A DNA stretch of 64,000 nucleotides from Myxococcota bacterium (GCA_963169045.1 CAUJDF010000075.1:98434-162433); one strand, 5' to 3'; shown: positions 5,046 through 64,000, counted from the stretch's first letter. Translations and numbers: made by a program. Notes: generated from the letters alone by a model not told the origin.

Positions 5046-5048
5046 CGC

Positions 5049-15022: not shown

Positions 15023-15079
15023 CCGCGGGGTTGCGGCATCGGACTCCATCGGGCAGCTTGCCGCCCGAGAGAGGTCCCG

Positions 15080-30228: not shown

Positions 30229-30291
30229 AGGCGTCGCGCGCCGCCCGGCGCGCGTGCGAGACTGGCGCCTCCACCACCCGACGGGGATGTC

Positions 30292-33643: not shown

Positions 33644-33684
33644 TGCCCCCTCCCTCCGTCGTCGGAGCGGGGAGCGTGGCACAC

Positions 33685-34404
33685 TCAGCGCGGGCGGACC
33701 ACCAGCCACGTGCGGCGGATTTGACGCGCCTCGATGCGGCCGCCCTCGCCGAAATTCGAGTCGAGCTCGCCGCGGCGCACGCGGGCCACGGTCACCTCCA
33801 CGCGGCAGCTCTCCTCGCCGTGGGCCTCGAGGTCGCCCGGCTGCACGACCAGGCCGCCGCGGTCGTCGTGGATCACGCGCTCGAAGGGCCAGATGCAGTC
33901 GCCCTCGAGCCGCACCTCGACGGGATCGCCGGCGGCGCGGTCCCACGTGATGCGCACGCGGTCCTCGCCGGGCACGACGAGCGCGCCGGCCCGCGGCGAC
34001 GTCAGCCGGAACGGCTCGGGCAGCGACACCGTCGAGTCGTCGGCGTCCTCGCCGTTCTCGGACGGCCGCTCGAACGCCACGCGGAACTCGGTGTCGGCCT
34101 CGTCGCGCGAGAAGGCGGCCAGGTAGTGGACCTCGTCCCAGACGTTGCGGCTCGCGACCATCGTCTTCGTCTGCGCCTGCGCCGTGGCCAGCAGACGGTC
34201 GCCTGCGGTCAGCTCGAGGTAGGTGTTCGACGAGTCGCCGCCGGGGCGCAGCGTCGTGCGGACGATGCTCTGTCCGTCGCCGTGCGCCTCCACCTCGATC
34301 TCGGCGTACACACCCGAGGTACGCAGGTCGGCGGAGTCGAGCGTCTCGCAGGCGGCGACGGAGAGCAGGCTGACGGCGACGGCGATCTTCGCGGAACGAT
34401 TCAT
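33685..34404 (-). CDS. Hypothetical lipoprotein
   Basis: ATG at 34404 with a GGGGGAG RBS. MNRSAKIAVAVSLLSVAAC lipobox. It occupies the 3' end of the 2271-aa shadow ORF. Confidence 0.7.
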   Translation of the reverse strand: MNRSAKIAVAVSLLSVAACETLDSADLRTSGVYAEIEVEAHGDGQSIVRTTLRPGGDSSNTYLELTAGDRLLATAQAQTKTMVASRNVWDEVHYLAAFSRDEADTEFRVAFERPSENGEDADDSTVSLPEPFRLTSPRAGALVVPGEDRVRITWDRAAGDPVEVRLEGDCIWPFERVIHDDRGGLVVQPGDLEAHGEESCRVEVTVARVRRGELDSNFGEGGRIEARQIRRTWLVVRPR

Positions 34405-34650
34405 GATTCTCCCCCGGTGTTCGTGTGTTTCGCCGCGGGATGGAGCAACGACCGTGCCGAGGGCGGCGGGCCCGCGGCGATGGCGGTCGGGCGTGCGCCG
34501 TGTGAACGCGCGTTCATGCAGTCGCCGACCGCCGTGCACAGGGGGGCGCCGTCCGGCGGGCGGCCCGCTTGCGTCATTCGGGGACCTGCCCGCACAATCG
34601 GGCCGTTTCGCGCCCCGGGGGGCGTCTCGACTCGTCAAGTCCATCAGAGG

Positions 34651-37600
34651 ATGTCCATGCGTAGGGTCACTTCGCTGACGAGCCTGCTGTGCCTTCTGTT
34701 CATGTTCGGCTGCACCGGCGAAGGCGGGGGCGGCGGTGACGGAGGCTCGGGCGGTGCCGGTGCTCAGGGCGGTGAAGGCGGCGCGGGCGGCTCGGGTGGC
34801 GAGGGCGGGGCCGGTGGAGAAGGCGGCGTCGGCGGCCAGGGCGGCGCCGGCGGCCCGGGCGGCGCCGGCGGCCAGGGCGGCGCCGGTGGACAAGGCGGCG
34901 CCGGCGGACAGGGCGGCGCCGGCGGTCAAGGCGGCGCCGGCGGTCAAGGCGGCGCCGGCGGTCAAGGCGGCGCCGGCGGAGAAGGCGGCGCCGGCGGAGA
35001 AGGCGGCGCCGGCGGAGAAGGCGGCGCCGGCGGAGAAGGCGGCGCCGGCGGAGAAGGCGGCGCCGGAGGTCAGGGCGGCGCCGGAGGTCAGGGCGGCGCC
35101 GGTGGCGCCGGCGGCCAGGGTGGCGCCGGCGGCGCGGGCGGTGAGGGCGGAGCGGGCGGCGCCGGCGGTGCGCCCGAGGTCGTCCTGCAGGGGCTGACGG
35201 TCGCGCCCGACGCCCTCCAGCTCGTCGCCGGCCAGACCGCGTACCTGCGCGTCGCCGGCACCTTCAGCGACGGCGACGAACGCGATCTGACCGACACCGC
35301 GGTCTGGCGCAGCGCCAACGGCGCGATCGTCGCCGTCGGCGCCCTCGGCGACGAGGGCAAGCAGGTCGTCGCCATCGGCGCCGGCCAGACGGCGATCACC
35401 GCCCGCGTCGGCGACGTCGTCAGCGGTCCGGTCGTGGTCACCGTGGCCGAGGTCGAGCCCGTCCGCATCGTCATCACGCCCGACGAGGCCACCGTGCCCG
35501 CCGGCGACTTCTTCGAGTTCACGGCGACCGCCGAGTTCAACGACGGTAACACCGCCGACGTGACCGAGCTGGCCGAGTGGCGCACCAGCAACGGCATCGT
35601 GGCCGAGATCTCCAACGAGCCCGGCGAGCGCGGGCGCCTCTCGGCCCACGTGGCGGGGGCGACGCAGGTCACGGCGATCTACGAGGGCCTGGTCTCGGCG
35701 CCGGTCCGCGTCGACGTCGCCGAGGCCGTCCTCATGGCGATCGACGTCTCGCCCGCCGATCCGACGGTGGCCGTCGGCCAGACGGTCTCCTTCACCGCGA
35801 CTGGCACCTACAGCGACGGCGACGAGGGCGACGTCACGGCGCTGGTGCAGTGGACGTCCTCCGACGAGGCCGTCGCGACCTTCGACGGCGCGCAGGGCGT
35901 GGCGCGCGGCGTCGCCGCCGGCCGGGCGCAGGTCGTCGCCCGCATCGGCGACCTCGCCAGCGCGCCGCGCACGATCAACGTCACGGCGGCGCGCGTCGTC
36001 GCGCTCGCCGCGCGCGGCGAGTCCGCCGAGGTGCCGGTCGGCGCGAACACACGCTTCCACGTCACCGCGACCCTGAGCGACGGCAGCGAGGTCGACTACT
36101 CGGCGCAGGCGGAGTGGCGCTCCTCCGACGCCGCGATCGCGCGCATCGTCGCCGGCGGCGTCGCCACCGGCGTGGCGCCCGGCGACGTGCAGATCACGGC
36201 GCACGCCGGCAACGTCGCGAGCGCGGCCCTGCCGCTGCGCGTCGTGCCCGTGGCGCTCACCGCGCTCGCGGTCGAGCCCGACAGCGCCGACCTCCGCGTG
36301 GGCGAGGTGACCCGCCTCGTGGCCCGCGGCACGTTCAACGACGGCTCCCGCGCCGACGTCACCGCGCGGGCCCAGTGGCGCAGCGCCAACGGCCTGATCG
36401 CCAGCGTCGGCGACGCCGAGCCCGACAAGGGCGCGGTCCGCGGCGTCGGCGCCGGGCAGACGCGCATCACCGCTTCCCTCGACGGCCAGGCGGCGGTCGC
36501 CACGGTCAACGTCCGCGCCCTCGCGGTCGCCCGGCTCGAGGTCGCGCCGGCCCAGGCCGAGGTCCCGCTGGGCGGCGAGCAGGCGTTCACCGCCACGGCG
36601 GTGCTCGAAGACGCCTCGCGCCGCGACGCTACCGCCGAGGTCAGCTGGCACAGCAGCGACGAGGGCGTGGCCACGGTCGACAACGAGGGCGAGGGCCGCG
36701 GTGTCGCCACCGGCCGCGGGCGCGGCCAGGCGTCGATCACCGCCCGGCTCGGCGCCGTCGTCAGCCCCGCGGCGACGCTCACCGTGACCGAGCCCGAGCT
36801 CACCGAGGTCTACGTCACGCCCGACGAGACCGAGGTGATCGTCGGCGAGACCGTGCAGTTCGAGGCGACCGCGGTGTACTCCGACGGCACCGAGCTCGAC
36901 GTCACCGAGCAGGCGCGCTGGACGATCGAGCCCGCCGAGCTCGCCGACATCTCCAACGCCGAGGGCACGCGCGGCGCGGCCACCGGCCAGCGTCTCGGCG
37001 TCGCCGACGTCTTCGCCTCCTTCGACGGCGAGCTCTCCGGGGCGGCGTCCCTGACGGTGCTGCCCGTGCCGAACCGCGCGCCGATCGTTCAGCTGCAGTG
37101 CCCGGAGTCGGGCCGCGAGGGCGACGCGCTCGACTTCGGCGCCGTGGGCACGAGCGACCCCGACGGCTCGATCGCCCGGCTGCTGTGGAACTTCGGGGAC
37201 GGCTCGCCGGCCATCGACATCGGCGACGGGCGCGCCGTCTCGTACACCTACGACGCCTCGGGCCCCTTCACGGTCGAGGTGACGGCCATCGACGACGAGG
37301 GCGCGCGGACGATCGCGCGCTGCAACGTGACCATCCTCAGCGCGAACGCCCCGACGGTGCGGCTCGTCCGCCCGCAGGGCGCCCGCGACACCACCCAGGG
37401 GGAGGTGATCTCGGCGCTCGTCGACGCGCGCCCCGGTCCGGGTCGCAACATCCGGCGCGTGGCGCTGCTGCTCGACGGGGAGGAGGTCGCCTTCGACGCC
37501 GACCTGCCCTACGAGATGGACTTCACGGTCCCCGCCGACGCGGCCACCGGCGCCACGCTGCGCCTCGTCGCCCAGGCGACGGACGACCGCAACGAGTCCG

Positions 37601-49586: not shown

Positions 49587-49686
49587 CGCCGCTTTCTCGC
49601 AAAAGCCTCCCCACTTCGCCCCATTTCGAATGAAATGCCGGGCGTCCGCCGTCGGTCCGGCGAACGCGACAGGGGAGGTGCGGGTG

Positions 49687-51402
49687 ATGGGGAAGCGGGC
49701 CGTCTTCGTGATGGCGATGTTCTGGGGCTCGGGCTGCGTCGTCGTGAGCGACGGCGGCGGGGGCGCGCCGCCCGGCGACGCCGGCGACGACGCGTGCGCC
49801 GAGGGCTGCGAGGCGCTCGACGCCTGCGGCCTGTGCCTGCCGGACGGCGCGGGCGGCTGCCTCGACGTCTTCTCGTGCGCCGACCAGTGCCGCGCCACCG
49901 GCGAGGACGAGCTCGGCGGGTGCCTGGCCGGCGCCCGCTGTGACGACGCCGCCGTCGCCGCGTGTTACGACGCGACCGACATCGGCGACGACGCCTGCGC
50001 GCAGGGGTGCCTGGCGCTCGACGCGTGCGACCTCTGCGCCGAGGAGGGCGAGTGCCTGACGCCGCGCCAGTGCGCCGAGGTCTGCCGCGAGGCCGGCGAC
50101 GACGACGTCTACGCCTGCGTCGCCGAGGTCCGGGGCTGCGGCCAGGAGGCGATCGACGCCTGCTTCGATCGCGACGCGATCGGCGACGACGCCTGCGCGC
50201 AGGGGTGCCTGGCGCTCGACGCCTGCGACCTGTGCGAGACGGGCGACGGCGACGAGTGCCTGACCCCGGCGGCGTGCGCCGAGGCCTGCCGGGAGGCGGA
50301 ACTGGACGCGCGCTTCGGCTGCCTCGCCGAGGTCGACGCGTGCGACGCCGACGCCATCGACGCGTGCTACGACGACGCCCCGCCGGCGGACGCGTGCGCC
50401 GCGGGCTGCGCCGCGCTCGACGCGTGCGACCTGTGCCTCGAGGACGAGGAGGGCGCCTGTCTGTCGATCGACGCGTGCGCCGAGGCCTGCCGCGCCGGCG
50501 GCAGCGCCGCGAACAGCGCCTGCGTCGCCGAGGTCGAGGGCTGCGATGCGGACGCCATCGAGGCGTGCTTCGCCGAGGCGCCCGCGCCGTCGTGCGACGT
50601 CGTCTGCCAGCGCGTGGTCGAGTGCGCTCAGCCGGCGGACGCCGACGCCGCGCTCGCCGCCTGCGTGGCCGACTGCGCCGAATTCACTGACGAGACGCGC
50701 ACTTGCGTGGTCGACGCCGCCGAGTGCCCCGCGGTCGGGGCGTGCGTCGAGCGTGACTTCGCCTGCGAGGCGGTCTGCGCCGGCCTCGACGCGTGCGACC
50801 TGGGTCAACCTGGAGGCTGCACCTGCGCCGGCTTCTCGCCCGAGGCGCGCGCCTGTCTCGACGCCGCGATGGACTGCGAGGTGCGCGCCGCGTGCCTGAA
50901 CCCGGCGCCGCCGGCCCCGACCTGCGCGGACGCCTGCGCCCGGCGCGCCGACTGCGACATGGTGCCTGGCGAGGAGCGCGACGCGGCGGTCGCCGAGTGC
51001 GTGGCGAGCTGCGACGGCGAGGACGCCGCGCGCCTGCGTTGCGTCGTGGAGGCTCCGGCCTGCGGCGACGTGCCCGCGTGCGACGCGCCGGCCGAGTGCG
51101 CCGCGATCTGCGGCCGCGCCGCCGAGTGCGGCGACGCCGGCGAGGGCTGCGCGGAGGCGTGCGTCCGCGACACCGGGCCCGAGCTGCGTGCCTGCCTGCT
51201 GGCCGCCGCCGACTGCGAGGCCGCGGCGGCCTGCGAGCGCGCGGCGCGGTGCGAGCTCGTCTGCGAGCGGACGGCCGGCTGCGGCCTCGCCGTCGGCCCC
51301 GACTGCGCCGCCGAGTGCGCCGCGACCCTGACCCCCGAGCAGCTCGGCTGCGCGCTCGAGGCCGAGTGCGCCGACCTGCCCGCCTGCACCGAAGGCGCGT
51401 AG
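49687..51402 (+). CDS. Cysteine-rich tandem-repeat lipoprotein (Myxococcus-type Cys-rich repeat; about 70 Cys in 571 aa)
   Basis: ATG at 49687 with a GGGGAGGTG RBS. MGKRAVFVMAMFWGSGC lipobox. There are about 9 repeats of the form DDACAQGCLALDACDLC...ECLTP.QCAE.CREAG.D...C.AEV.GC...AIDAC. Confidence 0.85.
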   Translation: MGKRAVFVMAMFWGSGCVVVSDGGGGAPPGDAGDDACAEGCEALDACGLCLPDGAGGCLDVFSCADQCRATGEDELGGCLAGARCDDAAVAACYDATDIGDDACAQGCLALDACDLCAEEGECLTPRQCAEVCREAGDDDVYACVAEVRGCGQEAIDACFDRDAIGDDACAQGCLALDACDLCETGDGDECLTPAACAEACREAELDARFGCLAEVDACDADAIDACYDDAPPADACAAGCAALDACDLCLEDEEGACLSIDACAEACRAGGSAANSACVAEVEGCDADAIEACFAEAPAPSCDVVCQRVVECAQPADADAALAACVADCAEFTDETRTCVVDAAECPAVGACVERDFACEAVCAGLDACDLGQPGGCTCAGFSPEARACLDAAMDCEVRAACLNPAPPAPTCADACARRADCDMVPGEERDAAVAECVASCDGEDAARLRCVVEAPACGDVPACDAPAECAAICGRAAECGDAGEGCAEACVRDTGPELRACLLAAADCEAAAACERAARCELVCERTAGCGLAVGPDCAAECAATLTPEQLGCALEAECADLPACTEGA

Positions 51403-54826: not shown

Positions 54827-56515
54827 TCAATCGACCGGTTCGTCCGGGGCGTGCAGCACCTGCTCGACGAGGCCGCGCGGGCCGCGCCGGACCAGGGCGA
54901 CGAGGGCGAGCGCGCCGAGCGCGACGGCGCACGCGACGGCGAACGGGCCGCCCGCCGCGATCGGCGGCGTCGTCGGCAGCGCCTGGACCACGACGCCGGC
55001 GACCACGGCCACGGCGACCACCGTGGCGCCGTACGCCGCCGCGGCGCGCCCGCCGTACAGGGCAGCGACGCCCCGCAGCACGCGCCACGCGGCGACGGGG
55101 GCCACCACGAGCCACGCCGCCGCCGCGCCCGGCGCGAGCCCCGCCGCCACCAGCGCCGCCACCGCTGGCGCGAGCCCCGCCACGGACATCCAGAGCGTCA
55201 GGCCGAGCGCCGCCGCCAGCGCGATGCTCGCCGGCGCCCCGAGCGTGGGCAGCGCCACCTCGTGCCGTCCGAGCAGCGCCGCCAGGCAGAACCCCACCAG
55301 GATCCAGGGGATGGCGTGCTCCGTGGCCGCGAACAGGCCGGCACGGAAGCCGGACGGGCCGTGCGCGTGGGAGTGGGGGTCCGCCGCGGCGGGCGCGCGC
55401 CGCGCCAGCGCGCCCGCGGCGACGGCGGCGGCGAGCGTCGCGACGACCGCCGCGGCGACGCGGGCGCCGCCCACCGCCGGCCCGAGCATCGCCAGGGACA
55501 CGAGCACCCCGTCGAGCGCGAGGGCCGGCATGGCGGCCAGCATCGCGAGCGTCGCCGCCGGCGCGGCGCCCTCCGCGGCCTCCCGGCGGCAGGTCGGCAG
55601 CGCGGAGCCGGCCATCGCCGAGCCCGCGACCCCGCGGACCAGGCCGGACCCCGGGCCGCCGGGTCGTCCCGCGGCGCGCCACCGCGCGAGCAGCCCCGCG
55701 CCCACGATGCCGGCGACGATCCACGGCGCGGTCGCGAGCGCCTGCTCGATCAGATGGACGCCGAGCCCGTGGTCGCCGTGCTCGGCCTCGGTGACCTCGA
55801 GGAAGGCCAGCAGGCCGACGGCGAAGAGCGCGCCGAGCGCGCCGCCGATCTGGAGGCCGCCGGCCTCGGCGACGTCGTGTCGGTGGTGGTGCGCGTCGTC
55901 GTCGTGGGCCTCGACGGGGACGCCGGCGGGGTGGTGCAGCAGGATGTGCAGGAGCGACCCGGCGACGAACGCCTGGAACGTGCCGAGGGCCCCCTGCGGC
56001 AGCGCGCGCAGGTTGTTCTCGCCGATCGCGAAGCCGAGCACGGTCGCCGCCGCCACCAGCAGCAGCAGCCCCACGGCCCAGCGCGGCCCCTGCCACGGGC
56101 GCACGATGAGCCAGATGGCCAGGCCGTCGGGCACGCGGTGGAAGATCACGCCGAGCGCCAGCAGCTCGTCGGCGCCTTCGCCGTGCCCGGCCAGCGCCGC
56201 GCCGTCCATGAGGGCGTGCAGCGCGAGGCCGCCGAGCGCGCCGAGCAGCACGAGACGCGCGCCGGGCGACGCCTCGGCGGCGCGCAGGCGCTTCTCGACG
56301 AGGCCGGGCAGCACGAAGCCGACGACCGAGGCGAGCACGGCCCAGGCGCCGGCCTGCTCGACCGCGTGGGGCAGCACGTGGAGCGCCATCAGGCCGCCGA
56401 CGGCGACCAGCGCGAAGCCGTCGAGCGCCGCCAGCACCGACCGGTGGCCGCCCACGAGGCCCGCCACCGCGGGCCCCGCCCCCAGCGCCAGCAGGCTCGC
56501 GAGCAGCTCGAGCAT
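54827..56515 (-). CDS. Polytopic membrane protein: ZIP-family (ZupT-like) metal transporter domain with a His-rich loop, fused to an extra ~300-aa permease-like domain
   Basis: LHALMDGAALAG and FHRVPDGLAIWL match the ZIP H-x3-(D/E)-G motifs. HDDDAHHHRHD is a His-rich loop. More than 14 predicted TM helices over 562 aa. Confidence 0.75.
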   Translation of the reverse strand: MLELLASLLALGAGPAVAGLVGGHRSVLAALDGFALVAVGGLMALHVLPHAVEQAGAWAVLASVVGFVLPGLVEKRLRAAEASPGARLVLLGALGGLALHALMDGAALAGHGEGADELLALGVIFHRVPDGLAIWLIVRPWQGPRWAVGLLLLVAAATVLGFAIGENNLRALPQGALGTFQAFVAGSLLHILLHHPAGVPVEAHDDDAHHHRHDVAEAGGLQIGGALGALFAVGLLAFLEVTEAEHGDHGLGVHLIEQALATAPWIVAGIVGAGLLARWRAAGRPGGPGSGLVRGVAGSAMAGSALPTCRREAAEGAAPAATLAMLAAMPALALDGVLVSLAMLGPAVGGARVAAAVVATLAAAVAAGALARRAPAAADPHSHAHGPSGFRAGLFAATEHAIPWILVGFCLAALLGRHEVALPTLGAPASIALAAALGLTLWMSVAGLAPAVAALVAAGLAPGAAAAWLVVAPVAAWRVLRGVAALYGGRAAAAYGATVVAVAVVAGVVVQALPTTPPIAAGGPFAVACAVALGALALVALVRRGPRGLVEQVLHAPDEPVD

Positions 56516-56678
56516 TCGCCCCCCGAGGTCGAAAGGGGCCGCAGGGTAGAGGCGAGCGTCCCGCGATACAAGCTGCGCCGCTCTTCGGCGCGCCCGATTT
56601 CGCGGGGGACACGACAGACGCTATCCAACGACCGGCCTTTGCCCGTAGAGTCTCGCCTTCGGTGGGGAGGACGTCTCG

Positions 56679-58787
56679 ATGGGCGGTCTGATGAACGCGT
56701 GGAAGTGCTTGAAGTCCCTCGCGATCCCGGCGATCGCGGCCGCGGCCCTGACGGCCTGCGGCGGCGACGACGGCGACGGGTCGGGCGGGGCCGGCGGCGC
56801 CGGCGCCGCCGGCGGCGAAGGCGGCGCCGGTGGCATGGGCGGCATGGGCGGCGCCGGCGGCGAAGGCGGCGCTGGTGGCGTGGGCGGCGCCGGCGGCGAA
56901 GGCGGCGCCGGTGGCATGGGCGGCGCCGGCGGCCAGGGCGGCGGCCCGCAGGGCGAGTGCGGCGACGACGTGACGGTCATCGACTTCAACGCCGAGGCGA
57001 CGCCCGACGGCGCGGCGCTCGCGTATGCCGGCGAGACCGGCACCAGAGACGTGTTCGCGGCCAGCTGCTCCGGTGAGACCGAGGGCTCCGAGGCCGTGCT
57101 GCGCTTCAGCGCGCCCGAGGCGGGCTTCTGGGTCTTCTCGACGGCCGGCGTCGGCTTCGACTCGATCCTGTACGCGCTCGGCGACTGCAACGACGGCTTC
57201 ACCGAGCTGGCCTGCAACGACGACATCGCCCAGGACGACCTCAGCAGCCGCATCCTCCTCGAGCTCGAGGCCGACGAGACGGTCTACCTGTTCGTCGACC
57301 AGCTGCGCGGCACGTCGGCGACGCCGTTCCGCGTGACGGCGGAGCGCATCGACGCCGAGCCGCCGGTGATCAGCGAGTTCGAAGCCTTCTTCAACCCCGC
57401 GTTCTCGTCGGTGGGCATCTCCGCCACCGCGACCGACGCCGACGGGGACATCACGCGGTTCCGCTTCGGCATGATCGACACCGAGGGCATGCCGATCCCG
57501 CTCACCCAGGCGAGCGACGAGTTCGAGGCCGGCTTCGACGAGGTCGACTTCTTCACCCTCACGCAGAACGGCGACGGCACCTACGCCGTCGAGGGCACGG
57601 TCGTCTTCGATGCCCTGCCGCCCGTCGGCCAGCTGACGCTCGCGCTCGGCGACGCGAACGGCCTGTGGGGCGAGACGGCCACCGCCGCGGTGATGGCGCC
57701 GACGACCGAGCGCGCCGCGGGCGAGGCCTGCGACGGCGGACGCGCCCGCGACCTCTGCGCGGCGGGCACGGCCTGCGTCGACCGCGACGAGGACGACGCC
57801 TTCACCTGCGAGGTGGCCACCGCGCCCGTGCTCGGCGAGAGCAGCGCCTCGGTCAACGGCGACGAGGGCACCGTCGGCCTGCACCTCGTCGGCACCGACG
57901 CGGAGAGCGACGTGGCCTTCGTCAAGCTCACCGCCCTCGATGCCGGGGGCGCCGAGATCCCGTTCGGCGCCGAGCCCGGGCCGTCCTCGATCGGCTTCTA
58001 CCGGCTGCGCCAGGCCGAGGGCGCGTTCGACGGTATCGTGTCCTTCTTCGCTTTCTTCCAGAGCTGCCTCGACCGCGCGCAGGCGCAGTTCGACGAGTGC
58101 ATGGACGACGAGGAGACGTGCGTCGACGCCGCGAACGCGACGCTCGACGCGTGCAACGTGGAGACGGCGGGCCGGATCGCGACCCTGCGTGTCGTCACGG
58201 TCGACGACGCGCTCCTCGAGTCGGCGGCGGTGGATCTCGCGGTCGGGCCGACGCCCGCGGCCGAGGCCGGCGGCATCTGCGAGCCGCTCGGCGCCATCGC
58301 GTCCTGCCCCGAGGGCACGGCGTGCGGCGACCTGCAGGGCGGCGACGTGTTCGAGACCTGCGTCGCGCCGGTGACGGCGTGCGCCGAGGTCTGGGGCGCC
58401 ATCGAGCTGACGGCGGAGGGCGACGCGTTCGTCCACACGGGCGACAGCACGGGGGCCGAGAATCACGGCGGCGCCGGCAGCTGCGGCGGCGGCGGCCCCA
58501 ACGTGGTGCACCGCTTCACGGCGCCGGAGTCGGGCACCTACCACGCCGAGGTCACGGGCATCCCCGAGGACGGCGACTCGCTGCTCTTCGTGCGGAGCCA
58601 CTGCGGGTTCGCCGGCGCGGCGTTCGAGCTGGCGTGCAACGACGACATCGACACCCAGGGCGGCGAGCTCAACAGCGCCGTCGACTTCGAGCTCGAGGCG
58701 GGCGCCGAGGCGTTCCTGTTCGTCGACGGGTACGACGGCGCCTTCGAGGGCCCGTACACGCTGACCGTCACCCGCACCGACGACTGA
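56679..58787 (+). CDS. Lipoprotein with a (GGAGGxGG)n linker and two homologous domains ending in a ...ACNDDI... motif
   Basis: ATG at 56679 with a GGGGAGG RBS. LTAC lipobox. The two domains read FTELACNDDIAQDDLSSRILLELEADETVYLFVD and FELACNDDIDTQGGELNSAVDFELEAGAEAFLFVD. Confidence 0.8.
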   Translation: MGGLMNAWKCLKSLAIPAIAAAALTACGGDDGDGSGGAGGAGAAGGEGGAGGMGGMGGAGGEGGAGGVGGAGGEGGAGGMGGAGGQGGGPQGECGDDVTVIDFNAEATPDGAALAYAGETGTRDVFAASCSGETEGSEAVLRFSAPEAGFWVFSTAGVGFDSILYALGDCNDGFTELACNDDIAQDDLSSRILLELEADETVYLFVDQLRGTSATPFRVTAERIDAEPPVISEFEAFFNPAFSSVGISATATDADGDITRFRFGMIDTEGMPIPLTQASDEFEAGFDEVDFFTLTQNGDGTYAVEGTVVFDALPPVGQLTLALGDANGLWGETATAAVMAPTTERAAGEACDGGRARDLCAAGTACVDRDEDDAFTCEVATAPVLGESSASVNGDEGTVGLHLVGTDAESDVAFVKLTALDAGGAEIPFGAEPGPSSIGFYRLRQAEGAFDGIVSFFAFFQSCLDRAQAQFDECMDDEETCVDAANATLDACNVETAGRIATLRVVTVDDALLESAAVDLAVGPTPAAEAGGICEPLGAIASCPEGTACGDLQGGDVFETCVAPVTACAEVWGAIELTAEGDAFVHTGDSTGAENHGGAGSCGGGGPNVVHRFTAPESGTYHAEVTGIPEDGDSLLFVRSHCGFAGAAFELACNDDIDTQGGELNSAVDFELEAGAEAFLFVDGYDGAFEGPYTLTVTRTDD

Positions 58788-58797
58788 GGAGCGCGCC

Positions 58798-60141
58798 ATG
58801 AAGGTCTGGACGGCGCTGGCGCTGCTCGCGCTCGCCGGCTGCGGCGGCGAGGGGGGCGGGAACGACGGGGCGGCCGGCGGGGCGGGCGGCGCGGGCGGCA
58901 GCGTCGCGCCGGCGCCCGACGCGGCGGGCGGTGGCGGAGGCGGCGGCGACGCACCGGACGCGGCGCTCGAGGCCGCGGTCACCGGCCTGCGGCTCGGTCC
59001 TGCGGAGCTCACGCTGAAGCGCGGCGCGGAGGCACGGCTCGTCGTGACCGCCCTGCGCGACGACGGCAGCGAGGTCGACGTCACCGACCAGGCCGCCTTC
59101 GAGACCTCGAACGCCGACGTGGCGACGGTCGCCGCGGGCGGCGCGGTGACGGTCCTGCGCGGCGGCGCCGTCACCCTCACCGCCCGTGTCGGCGAGCACA
59201 CGGCGACGCTCGAAACGCGGGCGGCGTGCGACTACCCGCGCTTCGCCAGCGCCATCCGCTACGGCAGCGTGATGCCGCCCCTCTTCTGGCAGGGCGCCTT
59301 CCACCGCGACGGCGCGCCCTTCGACTTCCGCCTCGAGGACGTGCACTGCGACGTGGCCTGGAAGGACACCAAGGTGGTGTTCTTCATCGTGAGCGCCGGC
59401 TGGTGCGCGCCGTGCACCGTCTACGCGCAGCGCCTCCGCCCCGACGCCGCGGCGATCGAGGCGGCGGGCGGCCTGATCGTGTTCCTCGAGGCCGAGACCG
59501 AGGACTTCGGCCCCGCCGACAACGCGTACGCGCAGCGCCACATCGATCACATCATCGGCGACGCCTATGGCATCCGGCTCGGCGACGACGAGGCGCAGCC
59601 GCGCCGCAACTGGCTGCACGCGCAGCCGATCGTGACCGGCTTCCCGACGGTGATCGCGGTGCGCACCCGCGACATGCAGGTGATCACCGACAGCAACCAC
59701 AGTCAGTACTATCTGCCGCTCGAGCAGATCGCCGCCGATCCCGAGGCGGACTGGTCGAACCCGGGCCCGCCGCCGTTCAGCAACCACTGCGCGCCCGGCG
59801 ACGAGGAGGCGAGCGAGCCCAACGACGCCGTCGCCCAGGCGGCGCCGCTGACGCCCGGCGAGATCGGCGCCGGCATCTGCAACGAGAGCCCCGACTTCTA
59901 TCGCATCGACGTCGCCGGCGAGTGGCGGGTGACCGTCGACTTCGATCATGATGTCGGGGACATCGACGTCTTCGCATGGAACGAAGCCATCAACCAGCCC
60001 CTCCAGGTCGGGCAGAACCTCGTCGGCAGCAACGGCACGGGCGACCGGGAGACGTTCGCCTGGCGCGGGCCGACGACCATCGCCGTCATCGGCTACCAGG
60101 GCGCCAGCGCGCCCTACCGGCTGACGCTCGAGGCGCAGTGA
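58798..60141 (+). CDS. Lipoprotein with a Big_2 domain, a thioredoxin-fold domain (WCAPC) and a C-terminal PPC-like domain
   Basis: ATG at 58798 with a GAGGAG RBS. ALLALAGC lipobox. CxxC motif in KVVFFIVSAGWCAPCTVYAQRL. It begins 10 nt after the upstream stop. Confidence 0.8.
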   Translation: MKVWTALALLALAGCGGEGGGNDGAAGGAGGAGGSVAPAPDAAGGGGGGGDAPDAALEAAVTGLRLGPAELTLKRGAEARLVVTALRDDGSEVDVTDQAAFETSNADVATVAAGGAVTVLRGGAVTLTARVGEHTATLETRAACDYPRFASAIRYGSVMPPLFWQGAFHRDGAPFDFRLEDVHCDVAWKDTKVVFFIVSAGWCAPCTVYAQRLRPDAAAIEAAGGLIVFLEAETEDFGPADNAYAQRHIDHIIGDAYGIRLGDDEAQPRRNWLHAQPIVTGFPTVIAVRTRDMQVITDSNHSQYYLPLEQIAADPEADWSNPGPPPFSNHCAPGDEEASEPNDAVAQAAPLTPGEIGAGICNESPDFYRIDVAGEWRVTVDFDHDVGDIDVFAWNEAINQPLQVGQNLVGSNGTGDRETFAWRGPTTIAVIGYQGASAPYRLTLEAQ

Positions 60142-61208
60142 GGCGGCTCGCGGCGGCGGCCCTCCTGCTGTGGGGCTGCGGGGGCGGGGCGGGGGACGAC
60201 GCCGACGCGTCCCCCGCGACCGACACGGGCGGCCGACCCGCGGACGCCGCCTCCGCGCCCGCCGACGCCGCGCCCGCCGACGCCGCGCCCGACGCGACGG
60301 CGGCCGACGCGACGCCCGACACCGACGCGCTGCCGCCGCCGGTCGACGAGGACGTCGACTGGACGCCGGCCACGCCCGCCGCCCTGCACGCCGACATCCC
60401 GGGCGCGCCCACCGACCGGCCCGCCGCCTGCGGCGACCGCTGGGTCTCGGTCGTCCGCGGCTGGGTGGCGGCGCCGGGGGGCGCCCCCGTCCCCGGCGCC
60501 AAGGCCCAGTTCTGCGTGCACACGGTGCCCGGCGACGTCCTGGTCTGCCTGCGCCCCGCGACCGCCGGCGACGACGGCGTCTTCACCGTCGAGGTGCCCG
60601 AGAACACCCGGTGCATGAGCCGCGCCGCGCTGCGCGTGCTGCTGCCGGGGACGGGCAAGGCGACGACCTACTGCTCGGTGCCGCTGCCCGAAGGCGAGGC
60701 GGTGGTGCGGCTCGAGGCGCCGTACGTCGTGTTCCAGACCCGGCCGGCGGTGTCGCTGCCGCCCGCGGGCGACGACGCGGCCACGCGTCCCATCGCGTTC
60801 GACGACGGCCTCGTGATCGACTTCACGCCCGAAGCCTTCTACAGCGGTGGCGGCGACTACGCCGAGCTCGGCGGCCGCCGCGTGCCGGTCTCGGCGCGCG
60901 GCCTCTGCTTCCTCGAGGGCCAGCCCGCGCCCGACGGTCTGTACGCTTTCTTCCCGGAGGGCAGCTTCAGCGGCAGCGGCGCGCCCGTGCACATCCCGAA
61001 CGCGACCGGCCTGCCCGCCGGCGCGCGCGTCGAGCTGAACGTACTCGGCGGCCTCGACTGCCGCCGGCCCGACGGCCGCATCATCCCCGAGGCGTCCTGG
61101 GAGGCCATCGGCACGGGCACCGTGAGCGAGGACGGCGCCCGCATCGACAGCGATCCGGGCGTGGGGCTGCCCTGCCTGACCTGGCTCGGTTACCGGAGGG
61201 CCGAGTGA
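60138..61208 (+). CDS. Hypothetical lipoprotein (beta-rich)
   Basis: GTG at 60138 overlaps the upstream TGA (GTGA). VRRLAAAALLLWGC lipobox; 356 aa. Confidence 0.65.
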   Translation: MRRLAAAALLLWGCGGGAGDDADASPATDTGGRPADAASAPADAAPADAAPDATAADATPDTDALPPPVDEDVDWTPATPAALHADIPGAPTDRPAACGDRWVSVVRGWVAAPGGAPVPGAKAQFCVHTVPGDVLVCLRPATAGDDGVFTVEVPENTRCMSRAALRVLLPGTGKATTYCSVPLPEGEAVVRLEAPYVVFQTRPAVSLPPAGDDAATRPIAFDDGLVIDFTPEAFYSGGGDYAELGGRRVPVSARGLCFLEGQPAPDGLYAFFPEGSFSGSGAPVHIPNATGLPAGARVELNVLGGLDCRRPDGRIIPEASWEAIGTGTVSEDGARIDSDPGVGLPCLTWLGYRRAE

Positions 61209-61810
61209 GACACCTGTGTCTCCTGCTGGCGCTGCTGGGGTGCGACGCCTACACCGAGAAGCGCGAGCGCGGGGCGCCTGCCGACGCGGGGACGCCCGGC
61301 GACGGCGCCGCCCCGGAGGCCTGCGTCGACGTCCGCGCGGGCTACCCCGCGGGGCCCTACGGCGAGGGCGAGGGCGACGTGATCGCGAACCTCGCCTTCA
61401 CCGACGCCGAGGGCGCGCCGCTCGACCTCGCCGCATTGCACGCGCCCTGCGCGAACCGTCTGTTGCTCGTCAGCACCTCGGCGGGCTGGTGCACCGCCTG
61501 CCGCGAGGAGCAGCCCAAGCTGCGCCAGCTCCATCAAGACTTCCGGGGCGACGGCCTCGTGGTGATGGTGGCCTACTTCGAGGACGACAACTACGAGCCG
61601 GGCACCGTCGAGCTCGCCGCCGGCTGGCGCGACCGCTACGACCTCTCGTTCCCGGTGGTGCTCGACGCATCCTTCGCGTTCGGCGACTACTACGACCGCG
61701 AGCTGACGCCCATGACCATGCTCGTCGACCTCGAGACGATGGAGATCGTCAAGATCATGACCGGTTACGACGACTCGGTCGTCCGGTCCCTCCTCGGAGC
61801 GCGACTGTGA
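61205..61810 (+). CDS. Thioredoxin-fold lipoprotein (TlpA/AhpC-TSA-like; WCTAC)
   Basis: GTG at 61205 overlaps the upstream TGA. VRHLCLLLALLGC lipobox. CxxC motif in NRLLLVSTSAGWCTACREEQPKL. Confidence 0.7.
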   Translation: MRHLCLLLALLGCDAYTEKRERGAPADAGTPGDGAAPEACVDVRAGYPAGPYGEGEGDVIANLAFTDAEGAPLDLAALHAPCANRLLLVSTSAGWCTACREEQPKLRQLHQDFRGDGLVVMVAYFEDDNYEPGTVELAAGWRDRYDLSFPVVLDASFAFGDYYDRELTPMTMLVDLETMEIVKIMTGYDDSVVRSLLGARL

Positions 61811-62316
61811 TGCTGCGTGCCATCGCCCTGTGTGTGTCGCTGCTCGCCGCCCCCGCGCTCGCGGACGACGCCCCGCGCCCGCCGGTGTCCGACTTCGGCC
61901 TGCGCGCGCTCGGCGGCGAGCGGGTGAAGCTGTCGGGCCACGCCGGCAAGGTGGTGCTCGTGGCCTTCTGGGCCACGTGGTGCAACCCGTGCAAGCAGGA
62001 GCTCGCCTTCCTCGACGAGCTCGCGAAGAAGTACGCCGACCACGGGCTCGTGGTGCTGGCGATCAACACCGACGCGCCGAAGAGCCAGGCCGAGGTGCGG
62101 CGCTTCGTGAACGCGCGCGGCCTGTCGCTGCCCGTCCTGCTCGATCCCGAGGGCGAAGTGGCGGGCCGCCTCAACCCCCGCGCGTCGATGCCCTTCACGA
62201 TCTACGTCGACCGCGCCGGACGCCGCGCCTACGAGCACGAGGGCTTCACCCCCGATGAGCCGGCGAAGATCGAGGCGCGCGTCGCGGCGCTGCTCAAAGA
62301 GGCCGCGCCCCGGTGA
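61807..62316 (+). CDS. Periplasmic TlpA-like thiol:disulfide oxidoreductase (WCNPC)
   Basis: GTGATG at 61807/61810 overlaps the upstream TGA. MLRAIALCVSLLAAPALA signal peptide. Motif GKVVLVAFWATWCNPCKQELAFLDEL, typical of ResA/TlpA. Confidence 0.85.
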   Translation: MMLRAIALCVSLLAAPALADDAPRPPVSDFGLRALGGERVKLSGHAGKVVLVAFWATWCNPCKQELAFLDELAKKYADHGLVVLAINTDAPKSQAEVRRFVNARGLSLPVLLDPEGEVAGRLNPRASMPFTIYVDRAGRRAYEHEGFTPDEPAKIEARVAALLKEAAPR

Positions 62317-63809
62317 CGAAGGCCGCGTTCCTGCTGCTCCTCCCGGCGACCGCGGCCGCCCAGGACGCCGCCTTTCGCTTCGACGAGCGCCTCACGCTCG
62401 AGGCCCGCGGCGACAACGGCAACCGCCACGACGACGACGACGATTACGGCGCGGTCATCCAGCGCCTCACCCTCAGCGGCGACGCCGACCGGCTGAGCGT
62501 CGGCACCGATGTGGACTTCGACGCGTTCGTGAATGCGCCGTCGGACGCCTTCGAGAACGACGTCCGCCTCGAGCGCGTCCGCATCGCCTACGCCGCCGAC
62601 GCCTGGAAGCTCGAGCTGTGGGACTTCCACCGCCAGCTGGGCCGCGGAATCATCCTGTCGCTGCGCAAGGTGGACGAGCTCGGCGAGGACGTGACGCTGC
62701 GCGGCGGCGACATCTCCCTGACCCTCGAAGACCACGAGGCCGACTTCTTCGCCGGCCGCACCAATGCCAGCAACCTCGACGCCGTCTCCCGGCAGCACCT
62801 CGACGACCCCGAAGATCTGATCGTCGGTGGGTCCTATGCCTTCCGCGGTCTGTCGTCGCTCACCGTCGGCGTGCACGGCCTGCACGTGCGCGTGAACGAG
62901 AGCCTCGTCCCCGAGGCGGGGCAGGATCACAGCGCCGCCCTCGGGGGCTTCGTCGAGACGCCGGCGCTCGGCGACGTGCTCGCGCTCTACGTCGAGGTGG
63001 ACTGGCAGGGCAGGCACGTGGCCGGCAACGGCACCCAGGCCAAGGCGGCCTATGCCACCGTCGACGTGGCGCTCGGGCCCGTGAGCCTGCTCGCCGAGGG
63101 GCTGCTGCTCGACGACTTCTTCGTGCGCGGAAGCCCGAACACCGCGCTCCGCAAGCCGTTCGACTACGCGGCCCCGCCCACGCTCGAGCGCATCGACCAG
63201 GAAGTCATCGACAACACGAACACCCGCGGCGGTCGCCTCAAGGCGTCGCTGGCGCTCTTCGGCGGCGACCTCGTCCTCTACGGCAATGGCATGCGGCGCC
63301 AGAACGACCCCGACACCGACGCGCAGCTCGACCAGACGCACGTCTACGCCGGCTTCGAGTCGACGTGGGGCGCCGGCCGTCTGAACGCCAGCGGGGGCTT
63401 TCGCCGCGAGGAGCAGGGCGGCGAGCAGGTCAAGGCCATGACCCACGCCGAGGGGGACTGGCTGCAGCCGGTCGGCGCCGGCTACGCCGTGCACCTGGCC
63501 GTCAACCACGAGTGGCGCACGCTCGAGACGAACGACTACCTCCGCGGCACGTCGCTGCTCGGCGTCGAGAAGGGTGGCCTCGGATCGGTCACCGCGGAGC
63601 TCGGCTACGACACGCAGGATGACGCCGACGAGGTGCGTCAGGTCTTCGTGGCGGGCCATGTGTCGTGGGAGGTCTCGCGCGTTCTGACGTTGCGCGCGCT
63701 CGGCGGCAGTCAGCGCGGCGGTCTGAAGTGTGTCGCCGGGGTGTGTCGCGACTTCCCGGCGTTCACCGGAGGCCGCCTCGAGGTCCTGGCCCGCGGCGAT
63801 CTGCTCTGA
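62313..63809 (+). CDS. Outer-membrane-type (beta-barrel-like) protein with a signal peptide
   Basis: GTG at 62313 overlaps the upstream TGA. MTKAAFLLLLPATAAAQ signal peptide. It has alternating amphipathic beta-strand patterns with conserved Gly/aromatic residues near the C-terminus. 498 aa. Confidence 0.65.
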   Translation: MTKAAFLLLLPATAAAQDAAFRFDERLTLEARGDNGNRHDDDDDYGAVIQRLTLSGDADRLSVGTDVDFDAFVNAPSDAFENDVRLERVRIAYAADAWKLELWDFHRQLGRGIILSLRKVDELGEDVTLRGGDISLTLEDHEADFFAGRTNASNLDAVSRQHLDDPEDLIVGGSYAFRGLSSLTVGVHGLHVRVNESLVPEAGQDHSAALGGFVETPALGDVLALYVEVDWQGRHVAGNGTQAKAAYATVDVALGPVSLLAEGLLLDDFFVRGSPNTALRKPFDYAAPPTLERIDQEVIDNTNTRGGRLKASLALFGGDLVLYGNGMRRQNDPDTDAQLDQTHVYAGFESTWGAGRLNASGGFRREEQGGEQVKAMTHAEGDWLQPVGAGYAVHLAVNHEWRTLETNDYLRGTSLLGVEKGGLGSVTAELGYDTQDDADEVRQVFVAGHVSWEVSRVLTLRALGGSQRGGLKCVAGVCRDFPAFTGGRLEVLARGDLL

Positions 63810-63810
63810 C

Positions 63811-63830
63811 GCGCGCCCGGGCGCGCGGCG
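63811..63830. terminator. GC palindrome / hairpin between two convergent genes
   Basis: gcgcgcccgggcgcgc, a perfect 16-nt palindrome lying directly between the stops at 63809 (+) and 63833 (-). Confidence 0.4.
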
Positions 63831-63832
63831 GT

Positions 63833-64000
63833 CACTGCGGCGTGATCGAGGTGTTGTCGACGAGGACGTCGCCGCCGCGGTCCGAGATGAGCACGAGGCG
63901 GAAGGTGCCGGTGAAGTTGGCGGGGACGGTGAACTGGCGGGTGTACTGCGTCCAGCCGCCGACGACCGCCGTCGAGAACTCCTGGCCGGCGAAGTCGTAG
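63833..64000 (-). CDS. C-terminal fragment of a minus-strand gene that starts beyond the window
   Basis: My translation reads ...YDFAGQEFSTAVVGGWTQYTRQFTVPANFTGTFRLVLISDRGGDVLVDNTSITPQ*, a beta-sandwich-like C-terminus. The stop is the 'tca' at 63833. Confidence 0.5.

What the first reader, a model, noticed from the sequence alone, without database searches (positions are those of the whole stretch)
56679..63809. Six-gene operon, joined by GTGA overlaps, encoding three thioredoxin-fold CxxC envelope proteins, lipoproteins and an outer-membrane-type protein. I read it as a candidate extracytoplasmic thiol-disulfide system
Seen directly: six consecutive + strand genes with 10-nt, 4-nt, 4-nt, 4-nt and 4-nt junctions (GTGA or GTGATG overlaps at 60138, 61205, 61807 and 62313). 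That spacing implies tight translational coupling and fixed stoichiometry. Products: (1) a GGAGG-linker lipoprotein with two 'ACNDDI' domains; (2) a Big_2 + thioredoxin (WCAPC) + PPC-like lipoprotein; (3) an unknown lipoprotein; (4) a thioredoxin-fold lipoprotein (WCTAC); (5) a periplasmic TlpA-like reductase (WCNPC); (6) a beta-barrel-like signal-peptide protein. Three different CxxC thioredoxin folds, all exported, together with lipoproteins and a putative outer-membrane component, does not match the classical Dsb or Ccm/Res layouts. A 70-Cys repeat lipoprotein (49687..51402) and an adhesin with 'DDCCTAS' motifs lie a few kb upstream; both are obvious substrates that would need disulfide management. 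Inference: this is a dedicated cell-surface oxidative folding/isomerisation module, or a reductive defence module, and it is uncharacterised.
Basis: partly seen in the sequence, partly recalled or inferred. Interest (0 to 1): 0.72.

Follow-up and report, generated by a model that had tools for sequence, protein, structure and literature searches.

The report
Thioredoxin trio coupled to outer-membrane barrel
Six co-transcribed envelope genes form a module conserved across Myxococcota, in which two ResA-like thiol reductases always sit next to (and are sometimes fused to) a large outer-membrane barrel of unknown function; no such redox layout has been described, and its substrate is unknown.

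Summary
Six + strand genes (56679-63809) are joined by a 10-nt gap and four GTGA overlaps. They encode four lipoproteins, one soluble periplasmic protein and one outer-membrane (OM) protein.

Three products have thioredoxin folds with CxxC and cis-Pro conserved in every orthologue checked: g2 31/31, g4 55/55, g5 57/57. g4 and g5 also carry the ResA-type CxxCxxE signature. g6 is a DUF6029 (PF19494) OM beta-barrel; the AF2 model (pLDDT 90.6) has about 24 strands and no plug domain. g3 is a non-enzymatic three-domain beta-sandwich lipoprotein.

Gene order is strongly conserved. In 57 informative loci from Myxococcota, Bradymonadia and allied MAGs, g4 and g5 accompany g6 in 54. g3 is present in 35 of 44 loci and g2 in 26 of 44. 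g1 is peripheral. g5-type domains are repeatedly fused to the N-terminus of the barrel.

No CcdA/DsbD, cytochrome-maturation, Msr or peroxiredoxin gene is linked. The upstream Cys-rich lipoprotein and adhesin are not linked in any other genome.

Best reading: a reductive (ResA/TlpA-type) thiol-disulfide station mounted on an OM barrel, with the client unknown. It is a new variant of a known kind.

The parts
56664..56671 (+). Shine-Dalgarno-like GGGGAGGA, 7 nt upstream of the g1 ATG
   Evidence: Read from the sequence. No sigma-70-like promoter or intrinsic terminator was found anywhere in 56300-64000, which is uninformative in a 75% GC genome.
56679..58787 (+). g1: 702-aa lipoprotein (lipobox LTAC, Cys27) with a roughly 65-aa Gly-rich linker, 20 further Cys, and two ACNDDI-containing PPC-like end domains. 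Peripheral component.
   Evidence: Pfam PPC is only sub-threshold (24.9 vs 25.9 bits), and there is no significant PDB match. Orthologues are present in only 7 of 44 loci with at least 5 kb of upstream sequence.
58798..60141 (+). g2: 447-aa lipoprotein (LAGC) made of a Gly-rich linker, a Big_2 domain, a thioredoxin-fold domain (WCAPC, 59401-59415; cis-Pro in FPT) and a C-terminal beta domain with an EPND motif.
   Evidence: Big_2 E 1.1e-6. The family profile hits thioredoxin 4fyu at E 1.9e-8 and ResA, TlpA and tryparedoxin weakly. CxxC and cis-Pro are conserved in 31/31. Pfam does not detect PPC. Present in 26 of 44 loci, sometimes on the divergent strand paired with g3.
60138..61208 (+). g3: 356-aa lipoprotein (LWGC) with a roughly 80-aa disordered linker and three beta-sandwich domains; six conserved Cys; no catalytic fold.
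61205..61810 (+). g4: 201-aa thioredoxin-fold lipoprotein (LLGC, Asp at +2), active site WCTACREE (61487-61501), short tether. Core component.
   Evidence: AhpC-TSA 34.9 bits and Redoxin 30.7 bits, both above Pfam cut-offs. Best PDB match is ResA at 2.5e-7. CxxC 55/55, cis-Pro 55/55, CxxCxxE 55/55. The tether from lipid Cys to the domain has a median of 20 aa. Present in 54 of 57 loci.
61807..62316 (+). g5: 169-aa soluble periplasmic TlpA/ResA/DsbE-like thioredoxin (type I signal peptide), active site WCNPCKQE (61978-61992). Core component, fused to the barrel in some lineages.
   Evidence: AhpC-TSA 76 bits and Redoxin 71 bits. PDB matches: DsbE 3gl3 at 5.7e-20, then ResA, TlpA and Etrx. CxxC 57/57, cis-Pro 57/57, CxxCxxE 55/57. 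No lipobox in 55 of 56 orthologues. Fusions: P0082 and 8 of 10 N-terminally extended DUF6029 representatives.
62313..63809 (+). g6: 498-aa OM beta-barrel of family DUF6029 (PF19494) with a signal peptide, about 24 strands and no plug domain. Conserved loops: 103-131, PPTLERIDQE (63174-63203), and a C-terminal hairpin GGLKCVAGVCRDFP with an invariant cross-strand Cys pair (63729-63746).

Best explanation
The locus encodes a lineage-specific envelope thiol-disulfide module, found in Myxococcota, Bradymonadia and allies, that is built on an OM beta-barrel. Its conserved core has three parts: a soluble periplasmic ResA/TlpA-type thioredoxin (g5), a short-tethered ResA-type thioredoxin lipoprotein (g4), and a roughly 24-stranded plug-less DUF6029 barrel (g6). 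The usual accessories are a beta-sandwich lipoprotein on a long disordered tether (g3) and a Big_2-thioredoxin lipoprotein (g2). g1 is a lineage-restricted, Cys-rich addition.

Proposed mechanism: reducing equivalents from cytoplasmic thioredoxin cross the inner membrane through a CcdA/DsbD-type protein encoded elsewhere. g5 receives them and works at the periplasmic mouth of the barrel, where it is covalently tethered by a roughly 15-residue linker in fusion proteins. g5, g4 and g2 then form a short reductive or isomerising cascade. That cascade acts on Cys-containing clients that assemble on or pass through the barrel. The most economical candidates are the co-encoded disulfide-rich lipoproteins g3, g2 and g1; alternatively the client is an exogenous substrate entering through the pore.

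Shown: the gene structure; the thioredoxin folds and active-site conservation; the barrel; the lipoprotein versus soluble status of each product; the conserved synteny; and the recurrent g5-barrel fusions. Inferred: the reductive direction, the external electron donor, physical complex formation, and the identity of the client.
For: Gene structure and overlaps. The same tight junctions occur in the Vulgatibacter locus.

Thioredoxin folds: g4 and g5 score above Pfam cut-offs. NCBIfam best hits are ResA, TlpA, StoA and DsbE. PDB best hits are DsbE, ResA, TlpA and Etrx. The g2 family profile matches thioredoxin at E 1.9e-8.

Active-site conservation: CxxC in 31/31, 55/55 and 57/57 orthologues, and cis-Pro in all of them. 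CxxCxxE is present in g4 55/55 and g5 55/57. The equivalent buried Glu80 of ResA is mechanistically important (PMC2749146).

Barrel: PF19494 and a confident all-beta AF2 model matching OM barrels.

Synteny: g4 and g5 are present in 54 of 57 informative loci, and g4-g5-g6 are contiguous in 50. g3 is present in 35 of 44 and g2 in 26 of 44. The g2-g3 pair stays adjacent even when inverted.

Fusions: P0082 has a Redoxin domain plus DUF6029. Eight of ten N-terminally extended representatives carry an N-terminal TlpA-like domain, and one carries two.

Localisation: g2, g3 and g4 orthologues are mostly lipoproteins, while g5 is not. No other gene is conserved with the module.
Against: No electron donor (CcdA, DsbD or ScsB) is encoded in the module, in any of the 78 loci, or in the 64-kb window, so the reductive direction rests on family resemblance only.

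No client is identified. No Msr, peroxiredoxin, cytochrome-maturation or copper-chaperone gene is linked.

Three barrel orthologues with full flanks (L037, L039, L052) and a distant DUF6029 clade lack thioredoxin neighbours, so the barrel family is not obligatorily redox-coupled.

The only published comment on DUF6029 suggests a Wzi-like polysaccharide porin, based on HHpred alone (PMC9603273).
Confidence: 0.5

Rival explanations
1. A thiol-based conduit across the OM. g5 in the periplasm passes electrons to g4, which is lodged in or under the wide plug-less barrel, and g4 passes them on to g2, which is displayed on the cell surface with Big_2 and beta-domain binding modules. The arrangement would parallel the porin-cytochrome complexes MtrCAB/Pcc, with thioredoxin folds in place of haems. 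It would reduce extracellular disulfides, for example in prey or matrix proteins.
Against: There is no evidence that any component is surface-exposed. g2 is absent from about 40% of loci. The barrel's Cys hairpin is also conserved in DUF6029 members that lack thioredoxin partners, which fits a structural disulfide. Nothing tested shows that the lumen accommodates a thioredoxin fold. No precedent exists.
Confidence: 0.13
2. An envelope antioxidant or repair pathway. The thioredoxins would reduce sulfenylated or over-oxidised OM and periplasmic proteins, or feed a peroxiredoxin or methionine sulfoxide reductase encoded elsewhere. This resembles ScsB-TlpA-PprX in Caulobacter or CcdA-Etrx-MsrAB2 in pneumococci. 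The barrel would be either a protected client or a docking site.
For: g5 is closest to DsbE, ResA, TlpA and Etrx structures. Known TlpA-like proteins serve such pathways (PMC3322552; PMC3914529). JGI auto-annotation names the fusion proteins 'peroxiredoxin'.
Against: No Prx, Msr or DsbG-like gene is linked in any locus. g4 and g5 themselves lack the peroxiredoxin PxxxT/SxxC motif and have WCxxC instead. A general repair role does not explain the near-obligate pairing with, and fusion to, one particular OM barrel.
Confidence: 0.17
3. A translocon for surface lipoproteins or polysaccharide. DUF6029 would export the co-encoded lipoproteins g1-g3, or a polymer as proposed for Wzi-like barrels. The ResA-like proteins would only keep the Cys-rich cargo reduced and unfolded until it has passed through, as CcmG and ResA do for apocytochromes.
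Confidence: 0.15
4. One reading: a dedicated oxidative-folding or isomerisation system for the neighbouring 70-Cys repeat lipoprotein (49630-51402) and the adhesin (33511-40575).
For: These Cys-rich genes lie 5-23 kb upstream in this window.
Against: Neither protein has a homologue within 10 kb of the module in any other locus. The only adhesin matches are below 80 bits, in ten loci, and were not examined. Five unrelated genes on both strands separate them from the operon. The ResA-type signature argues against an oxidase.
Confidence: 0.03

Closest known systems
ResA / CcmG (DsbE) / TlpA / StoA: extracytoplasmic TlpA-like thiol-disulfide reductases
   Same: g4 and g5 share the thioredoxin fold with the AhpC-TSA/Redoxin signature, the WCxxC active site, the cis-Pro loop, the buried Glu three residues after the second Cys (CxxCxxE), and export to the envelope as a lipoprotein or soluble protein.
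   Different: They are not linked to cytochrome c maturation genes (ResBC, CcmF/H), to Sco/CoxB, or to sporulation genes. NCBIfam scores are far below the equivalog cut-offs (87 vs 170 bits for ResA, 65 vs 230 for TlpA). Two such proteins, plus a third thioredoxin, are locked to an OM barrel, and some are fused to it.
ScsB-TlpA-PprX and ScsABCD envelope reducing pathways (PMC3322552)
   Same: A multi-step periplasmic reducing cascade built from TlpA-like proteins.
   Different: No ScsB/DsbD-type membrane donor, peroxiredoxin or ScsC-like isomerase is present in the module, and those systems have no OM barrel component.
Etrx1/Etrx2 surface thioredoxin lipoproteins of Streptococcus pneumoniae (PMC3914529)
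   Same: Lipid-anchored TlpA-like thioredoxins that work outside the cytoplasmic membrane. g5 matches the Etrx structures 4hqs and 2yp6 at 1e-16 and 4e-12.
   Different: Etrx operons carry CcdA and MsrAB2 and occur in a monoderm. Here there is no CcdA or Msr, the host is a diderm, and there is an OM barrel partner.
DUF6029 (PF19494), compared with Wzi-like OM barrels (PMC9603273)
   Same: g6 scores above the Pfam cut-off and shares the family-wide C-terminal GGxKCxGGxCR hairpin.
Barrel-plus-partner OM complexes: MtrCAB/Pcc porin-cytochromes, LptDE, RcsF-OMP
   Different: There are no haem-binding CxxCH motifs and no sequence relationship. The resemblance is architectural only, and complex formation is untested.

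Membership tests
TlpA-like thioredoxin-fold reductases (ResA/CcmG/TlpA) | Thioredoxin-like fold detected by family HMMs above curated cut-offs | tested here: met
   g5: AhpC-TSA 76.1 bits and Redoxin 71.1 bits. g4: 34.9 and 30.7 bits. Cut-offs are 26 and 26.6. g2 is only sub-threshold in Pfam (15.5 bits), but its family profile hits thioredoxin 4fyu at E 1.9e-8.
TlpA-like thioredoxin-fold reductases (ResA/CcmG/TlpA) | Conserved CxxC active site and cis-Pro loop | tested here: met
   CxxC is conserved in g2 31/31, g4 55/55 and g5 57/57. Pro at the cis-Pro column is conserved in 31/31, 55/55 and 57/57.
TlpA-like thioredoxin-fold reductases (ResA/CcmG/TlpA) | Acidic residue three positions after the second Cys (ResA Glu80 type) | tested here: met
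   Glu in g4 55/55 and g5 55/57. g2 has Tyr or another residue there, so g2 is a different thioredoxin subtype. The importance of Glu80 is stated in PMC2749146.
TlpA-like thioredoxin-fold reductases (ResA/CcmG/TlpA) | Kept reduced by a CcdA/DsbD-type membrane electron donor; low redox potential | not testable with these tools
   No such gene is present in the window or in any locus. This needs whole genomes and biochemistry.
ResA/CcmG specifically (cytochrome c maturation) | Genomic or functional link to ResBC/CcsBA or CcmA-H, and equivalog-level similarity | tested here: not met
   No such neighbours exist in 78 loci. NCBIfam scores are far below cut-offs: ResA 87 vs 170 bits, DsbE 42.7 vs 123 bits.
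Peroxiredoxin (AhpC/TSA sensu stricto) | Peroxidatic Cys within a PxxxT/SxxC motif | tested here: not met
   The active sites are WCTAC and WCNPC, and there is no PxxxT/SxxC at the active site. The single regex hit in g2 (residue 324) lies outside the thioredoxin domain.
DsbA/DsbB oxidative folding system | DsbA-type fold (thioredoxin with a helical insertion, CPHC-like site) and a DsbB/VKOR partner | tested here: not met
   No DsbA, DsbB or VKOR family hit for any of the six products or for conserved neighbours.
DUF6029 (PF19494) | Match to the family HMM above the gathering score; OM beta-barrel; C-terminal GGxKCxGGxCR motif | tested here: met
   31.3 bits against a cut-off of 27. All 96 homologues carry PF19494. 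The AF2 barrel has pLDDT 90.6. The motif is conserved across near and distant members.
Wzi-type capsule lectin barrels | 18-stranded barrel with an N-terminal helical plug; linkage to capsule/OPX genes | tested here: not met
Porin-cytochrome conduits (MtrCAB/Pcc) | Multihaem CxxCH proteins paired with the barrel | tested here: not met
   No CxxCH motif in any of the six products. The analogy is architectural only.
PPC (pre-peptidase C-terminal) domain, claimed for g1 and g2 | Match to PF04151 above the gathering score | tested here: inconclusive
   g1 scores 24.9 bits against a cut-off of 25.9. g2 and 22 orthologues give no PPC hit at E no higher than 0.01. Only motif-level resemblance remains (EPND...DFY...GD.D).

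The most novel reading that the evidence does not exclude
The module is a thiol-disulfide electron conduit across the outer membrane, a protein-thiol counterpart of the MtrCAB porin-cytochrome complex. Periplasmic g5 would reduce g4, which is held in or under the plug-less 24-stranded DUF6029 barrel. g4 would then reduce the surface-displayed Big_2-thioredoxin lipoprotein g2. This would give these largely predatory bacteria a disulfide reductase on the cell surface. No mechanism for delivering thiol reducing power beyond the outer membrane of a diderm is known.
Probability: 0.12. Interest if true: 0.9.

Novelty: new variant of a known kind. Interest (0 to 1): 0.6.

Why it matters
Envelope thiol-disulfide pathways are well mapped up to the periplasm: DsbAB, DsbCD, CcmG/ResA, TlpA and Scs. 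None of them is known to be organised around an OM protein.

Here two ResA-type reductases are genetically locked to a large OM barrel of an uncharacterised family across a whole phylum-level group, and they have been fused to it repeatedly. That pairing gives DUF6029 its first concrete functional association, with thiol redox chemistry rather than polysaccharide export. It also defines a minimal three-gene unit (g4-g5-g6) that can be deleted, pulled down and redox-trapped in a culturable host such as Vulgatibacter.

If the barrel proves to be a site where reducing power is used at the OM or passed across it, this would extend the known reach of bacterial reductive pathways. It could also bear on how myxobacteria handle their very Cys-rich secreted and surface proteomes, or attack prey envelopes.

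Tried and rejected
1. Link to the upstream Cys-rich lipoprotein, adhesin, His-rich permease and other window neighbours. tblastn of 11 neighbours against all loci found nothing above 80 bits. Rejected.

2. Search for an extra conserved partner (CcdA/DsbD, Msr, Prx, cytochrome maturation) by all-vs-all clustering of ORFs in 79 loci. Only g1-g6 recur, apart from generic Ser/Thr kinases and one subclade-specific downstream gene. Pfam scans of the rest of the window also found none.

3. Third homologue search with a broadened alignment (A4), intended to reach Bacteroidota DUF6029. It returned the same 95 proteins. Wasted.

4. Profile search of PDB sequences with the barrel alignment gave one chance-level hit, 9xnh_I at E 0.64.

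5. A g1 search against PDB sequences found nothing significant.

6. Foldseek against AFDB50 for the barrel: the library was unavailable.

7. Promoter and terminator scan: nothing found, which is uninformative at 75% GC.

8. The idea that the thioredoxins service the barrel's own Cys pair. The pair is conserved in DUF6029 members without thioredoxin partners. By standard OMP topology it lies in an extracellular or lumenal loop, whereas the fused thioredoxin is tethered at the periplasmic N-terminus. Judged unlikely in the folded state, though not excluded during biogenesis.

9. Peroxiredoxin reading of the AhpC-TSA hits: rejected on active-site motifs.

10. Literature searches for DUF6029, PF19494, and thioredoxin plus OM barrel systems found one paper with an HHpred remark and no functional study.

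Full report
**1. The observation**

- g1: 56679-58787, 702 aa.
- A 10-nt gap follows.
- g2: 58798-60141, 447 aa.
- g3: 60138-61208, 356 aa.
- g4: 61205-61810, 201 aa.
- g5: 61807-62316, 169 aa.
- g6: 62313-63809, 498 aa.

The last four junctions are GTGA overlaps. At the g4/g5 junction (GTGATG) an ATG one codon downstream is an equally plausible start, and it is the one called on an identical public contig.

All six frames have GC3 of 0.90-0.97 in a genome of about 75% GC. A GGGGAGGA Shine-Dalgarno sequence precedes g1. The quoted motifs (WCAPC, WCTAC, WCNPC, two ACNDDI) and four lipoboxes are present.

Overlapping stop and start codons are routine in high-GC operons and carry little weight alone. 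The conservation described in section 3 is what makes the arrangement significant.

**2. What each product is**

g5 is an unambiguous TlpA/ResA/DsbE-like thioredoxin. It scores 76 bits for AhpC-TSA and 71 bits for Redoxin. Its best solved relatives are DsbE 3gl3 at 6e-20, followed by ResA, TlpA and pneumococcal Etrx. It has a type I signal peptide.

g4 is a more divergent member of the same superfamily and also scores above Pfam cut-offs. Its best PDB match is ResA at 2.5e-7. It carries a lipobox.

g2 has a Big_2 domain (E 1e-6) and a thioredoxin-like domain that Pfam sees only weakly. A profile built from 23 orthologues matches thioredoxin 4fyu at E 1.9e-8, and matches ResA, TlpA and tryparedoxins more weakly. 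Pfam does not recognise the C-terminal beta domain of g2 as PPC in any of the 23 orthologues. The PPC match in g1 is just below threshold.

- The longest alignments (370-385 residues) are to the 24-stranded ushers FimD and PapC.
- MtrB scores 14.4.
- Wzi scores only 13.5.

Three loop regions of g6 are nearly invariant: residues 103-131, PPTLERIDQE at 288-297, and a C-terminal hairpin GGLKCVAGVCRDFP whose two cysteines face each other across the hairpin.

None of the six proteins has a CxxCH haem motif. The thioredoxins lack the peroxiredoxin PxxxT/SxxC motif.

**3. Conservation**

Homologues of g6 (96 clusters, all PF19494) and of g3 (39 clusters) come from Myxococcota-type MAGs, including Vulgatibacter, Bradymonadales and 'Myxococcales'.

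A scan of one genome per species returned 78 loci. All are from Myxococcota, Bradymonadia or Polyangia, plus one 'Bdellovibrionales' MAG.

tblastn of the six window proteins against these loci gives the following counts.
- Of 57 non-redundant loci with at least 1.3 kb of upstream sequence and at least 28% barrel identity, 54 carry both g4 and g5.
- In 50 of these, g4-g5-g6 are contiguous on one strand.
- Of 44 loci with at least 5 kb upstream, 35 carry g3, 26 carry g2 and 7 carry g1.

In Bradymonadia the g2-g3 pair is inverted and divergently transcribed but stays adjacent. The Vulgatibacter locus keeps all six genes in the same order with similarly tight junctions.

Active-site features are invariant:
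- CxxC: g2 31/31, g4 55/55, g5 57/57.
- cis-Pro: all orthologues.
- ResA-type CxxCxxE: g4 55/55 and g5 55/57, but not in g2. The equivalent buried Glu80 of ResA is mechanistically important (PMC2749146).

g2, g3 and g4 orthologues are mostly lipoproteins, whereas g5 has no lipobox in 55 of 56 cases. The g4 tether is short (median 20 residues). The g3 and g2 tethers are long (medians 83 and 120 residues).

**4. Fusions**

P0082 (670 aa) is a signal peptide, a g5-type thioredoxin, a linker of about 15 residues, and the barrel.

An HMM search of 1.84 billion representative proteins found 1245 family members. About a tenth of the best 150 have N-terminal extensions of 140-390 residues. Eight of ten extended proteins tested carry an N-terminal AhpC-TSA/Redoxin domain, and one (P0229) carries two in tandem.

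OM barrels start and end in the periplasm, so these fusions place the g5 active site at the periplasmic mouth of the barrel. Together with the synteny, this is strong evidence that the thioredoxins and the barrel work together physically.

**5. What is not there**

No CcdA, DsbD or ScsB, no cytochrome c maturation gene, and no Msr, peroxiredoxin, Sco or polysaccharide gene is conserved with the module. None lies elsewhere in the 64-kb window.

None of them occurs near the module in any other locus.

Three orthologous barrels (L037 and L052, which lie between lpd and lpxB in low-GC lineages, and L039) and a distant DUF6029 clade at 25-27% identity stand without thioredoxin neighbours. They still keep the Cys hairpin. 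The hairpin is therefore a family-wide feature and not a mark of the redox-coupled subfamily.

**6. Interpretation**

The module is best described as a reductive ResA/TlpA-type thiol-disulfide station mounted on an OM barrel.
- Minimal unit: g4 + g5 + g6.
- Usual accessories: g3 and g2.
- Lineage-restricted extra: g1.

I infer that electrons arrive from a CcdA/DsbD-type protein encoded elsewhere. I also infer that g5, g4 and g2 form a short cascade acting on Cys-containing clients that assemble on or pass through the barrel.

The direction (reducing or isomerising rather than oxidising) follows from family membership and the CxxCxxE signature, not from measurement.

The client is unknown. The co-encoded disulfide-rich lipoproteins are the most economical candidates: g1 has 20 Cys, g3 has 8 and g2 has 6 outside the lipobox.

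Rival readings:
- An Mtr-like thiol conduit across the OM feeding a surface-displayed g2.
- An envelope antioxidant or repair pathway like ScsB-TlpA-PprX (PMC3322552) or CcdA-Etrx-MsrAB2 (PMC3914529).
- A translocon whose cargo must be kept reduced.

**7. Comparison with what is known, and novelty**

g4 and g5 are members of the TlpA-like thioredoxin superfamily, with fold, CxxC, cis-Pro and acidic residue all met. They are not ResA, CcmG or TlpA orthologues: scores are far below the equivalog cut-offs and the defining genomic partners are absent.

Literature searches found no description of thioredoxin-fold proteins coupled or fused to an OM barrel. I therefore rate the finding a new variant of a known kind. 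It has moderate to high interest, because it gives an uncharacterised OM protein family a testable redox association and a compact experimental handle.

Noticed in passing
window 49630-51402 (+): A 590-aa lipoprotein with about 70 Cys arranged in repeated units of the form ACAxGCxALDACDLC...C..AC. It has no Pfam family and no homologue near the redox module in other genomes. Its own family and function were not examined.
   Followed up: partly
window 54827-56515 (-): A 562-aa polytopic membrane protein transcribed divergently from g1. It has a His-rich loop (HDDDAHHHRHD) and only a weak ArsP_1 'predicted permease' match (21.8 bits, below cut-off). It could be a metal transporter. It is not conserved next to the module.
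   Followed up: partly
window 30229-32970 (+): A 913-aa protein that combines a CotH kinase domain, two C-type lectin domains and two MopE-type putative copper-binding motifs. This is an unusual domain combination.
   Followed up: no
window 15023-17671 (+): A single 882-aa ORF fusing an amino-acid kinase (aspartokinase-like) and ACT domain to a PLP-dependent Orn/DAP/Arg decarboxylase. This would join the first and last steps of lysine biosynthesis in one polypeptide.
   Followed up: no
window 4026-5741 (-): DUF4331 is split across two adjacent ORFs: 5049-5741 matches the N-terminal part of the profile and 4026-5048 the C-terminal part. Possible causes are a frameshift, a pseudogene or an assembly error.
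   Followed up: no
window 33511-40575 (+): A 2354-aa surface protein with Big_2, PKD, right-handed beta-helix and NosD-like domains. It has weak matches (below 80 bits) in ten loci. These matches were not examined, and whether they fall on g2's Big_2 domain is untested.
   Followed up: partly
L037 10001-11527 and L052 10001-11521: In two low-GC (43-49%) lineages the DUF6029 orthologue has no thioredoxin neighbours. It sits between the 2-oxoglutarate dehydrogenase genes (sucA, sucB, lpd) and a gene whose N-terminus looks like lpxB (gene identities were judged by eye from N-terminal sequences, not by HMM).
   Followed up: partly
P0194 and P0253 (DUF6029 representatives, 'Deltaproteobacteria bacterium' MAG): These two barrels carry N-terminal extensions of 200-390 residues made of highly charged low-complexity sequence (ERER/RRRE and D/E-rich) in place of a thioredoxin domain.
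   Followed up: no
PDB 9xnh chain I versus g6 residues about 427-478: A 'pilus-like-gamma' protein shares the string ...GAQAGGLKCV with the DUF6029 C-terminal motif GSQRGGLKCV (E 0.64). This is probably chance.
   Followed up: no
L034, L038, L051, L054, L057, L058, L059, L066, immediately downstream of the barrel gene: A subclade-specific secreted protein of about 260-290 aa, ending in ...CPPG..VTG......LIDS....CSP, directly follows g6 in eight loci. It is absent from the window.
   Followed up: no
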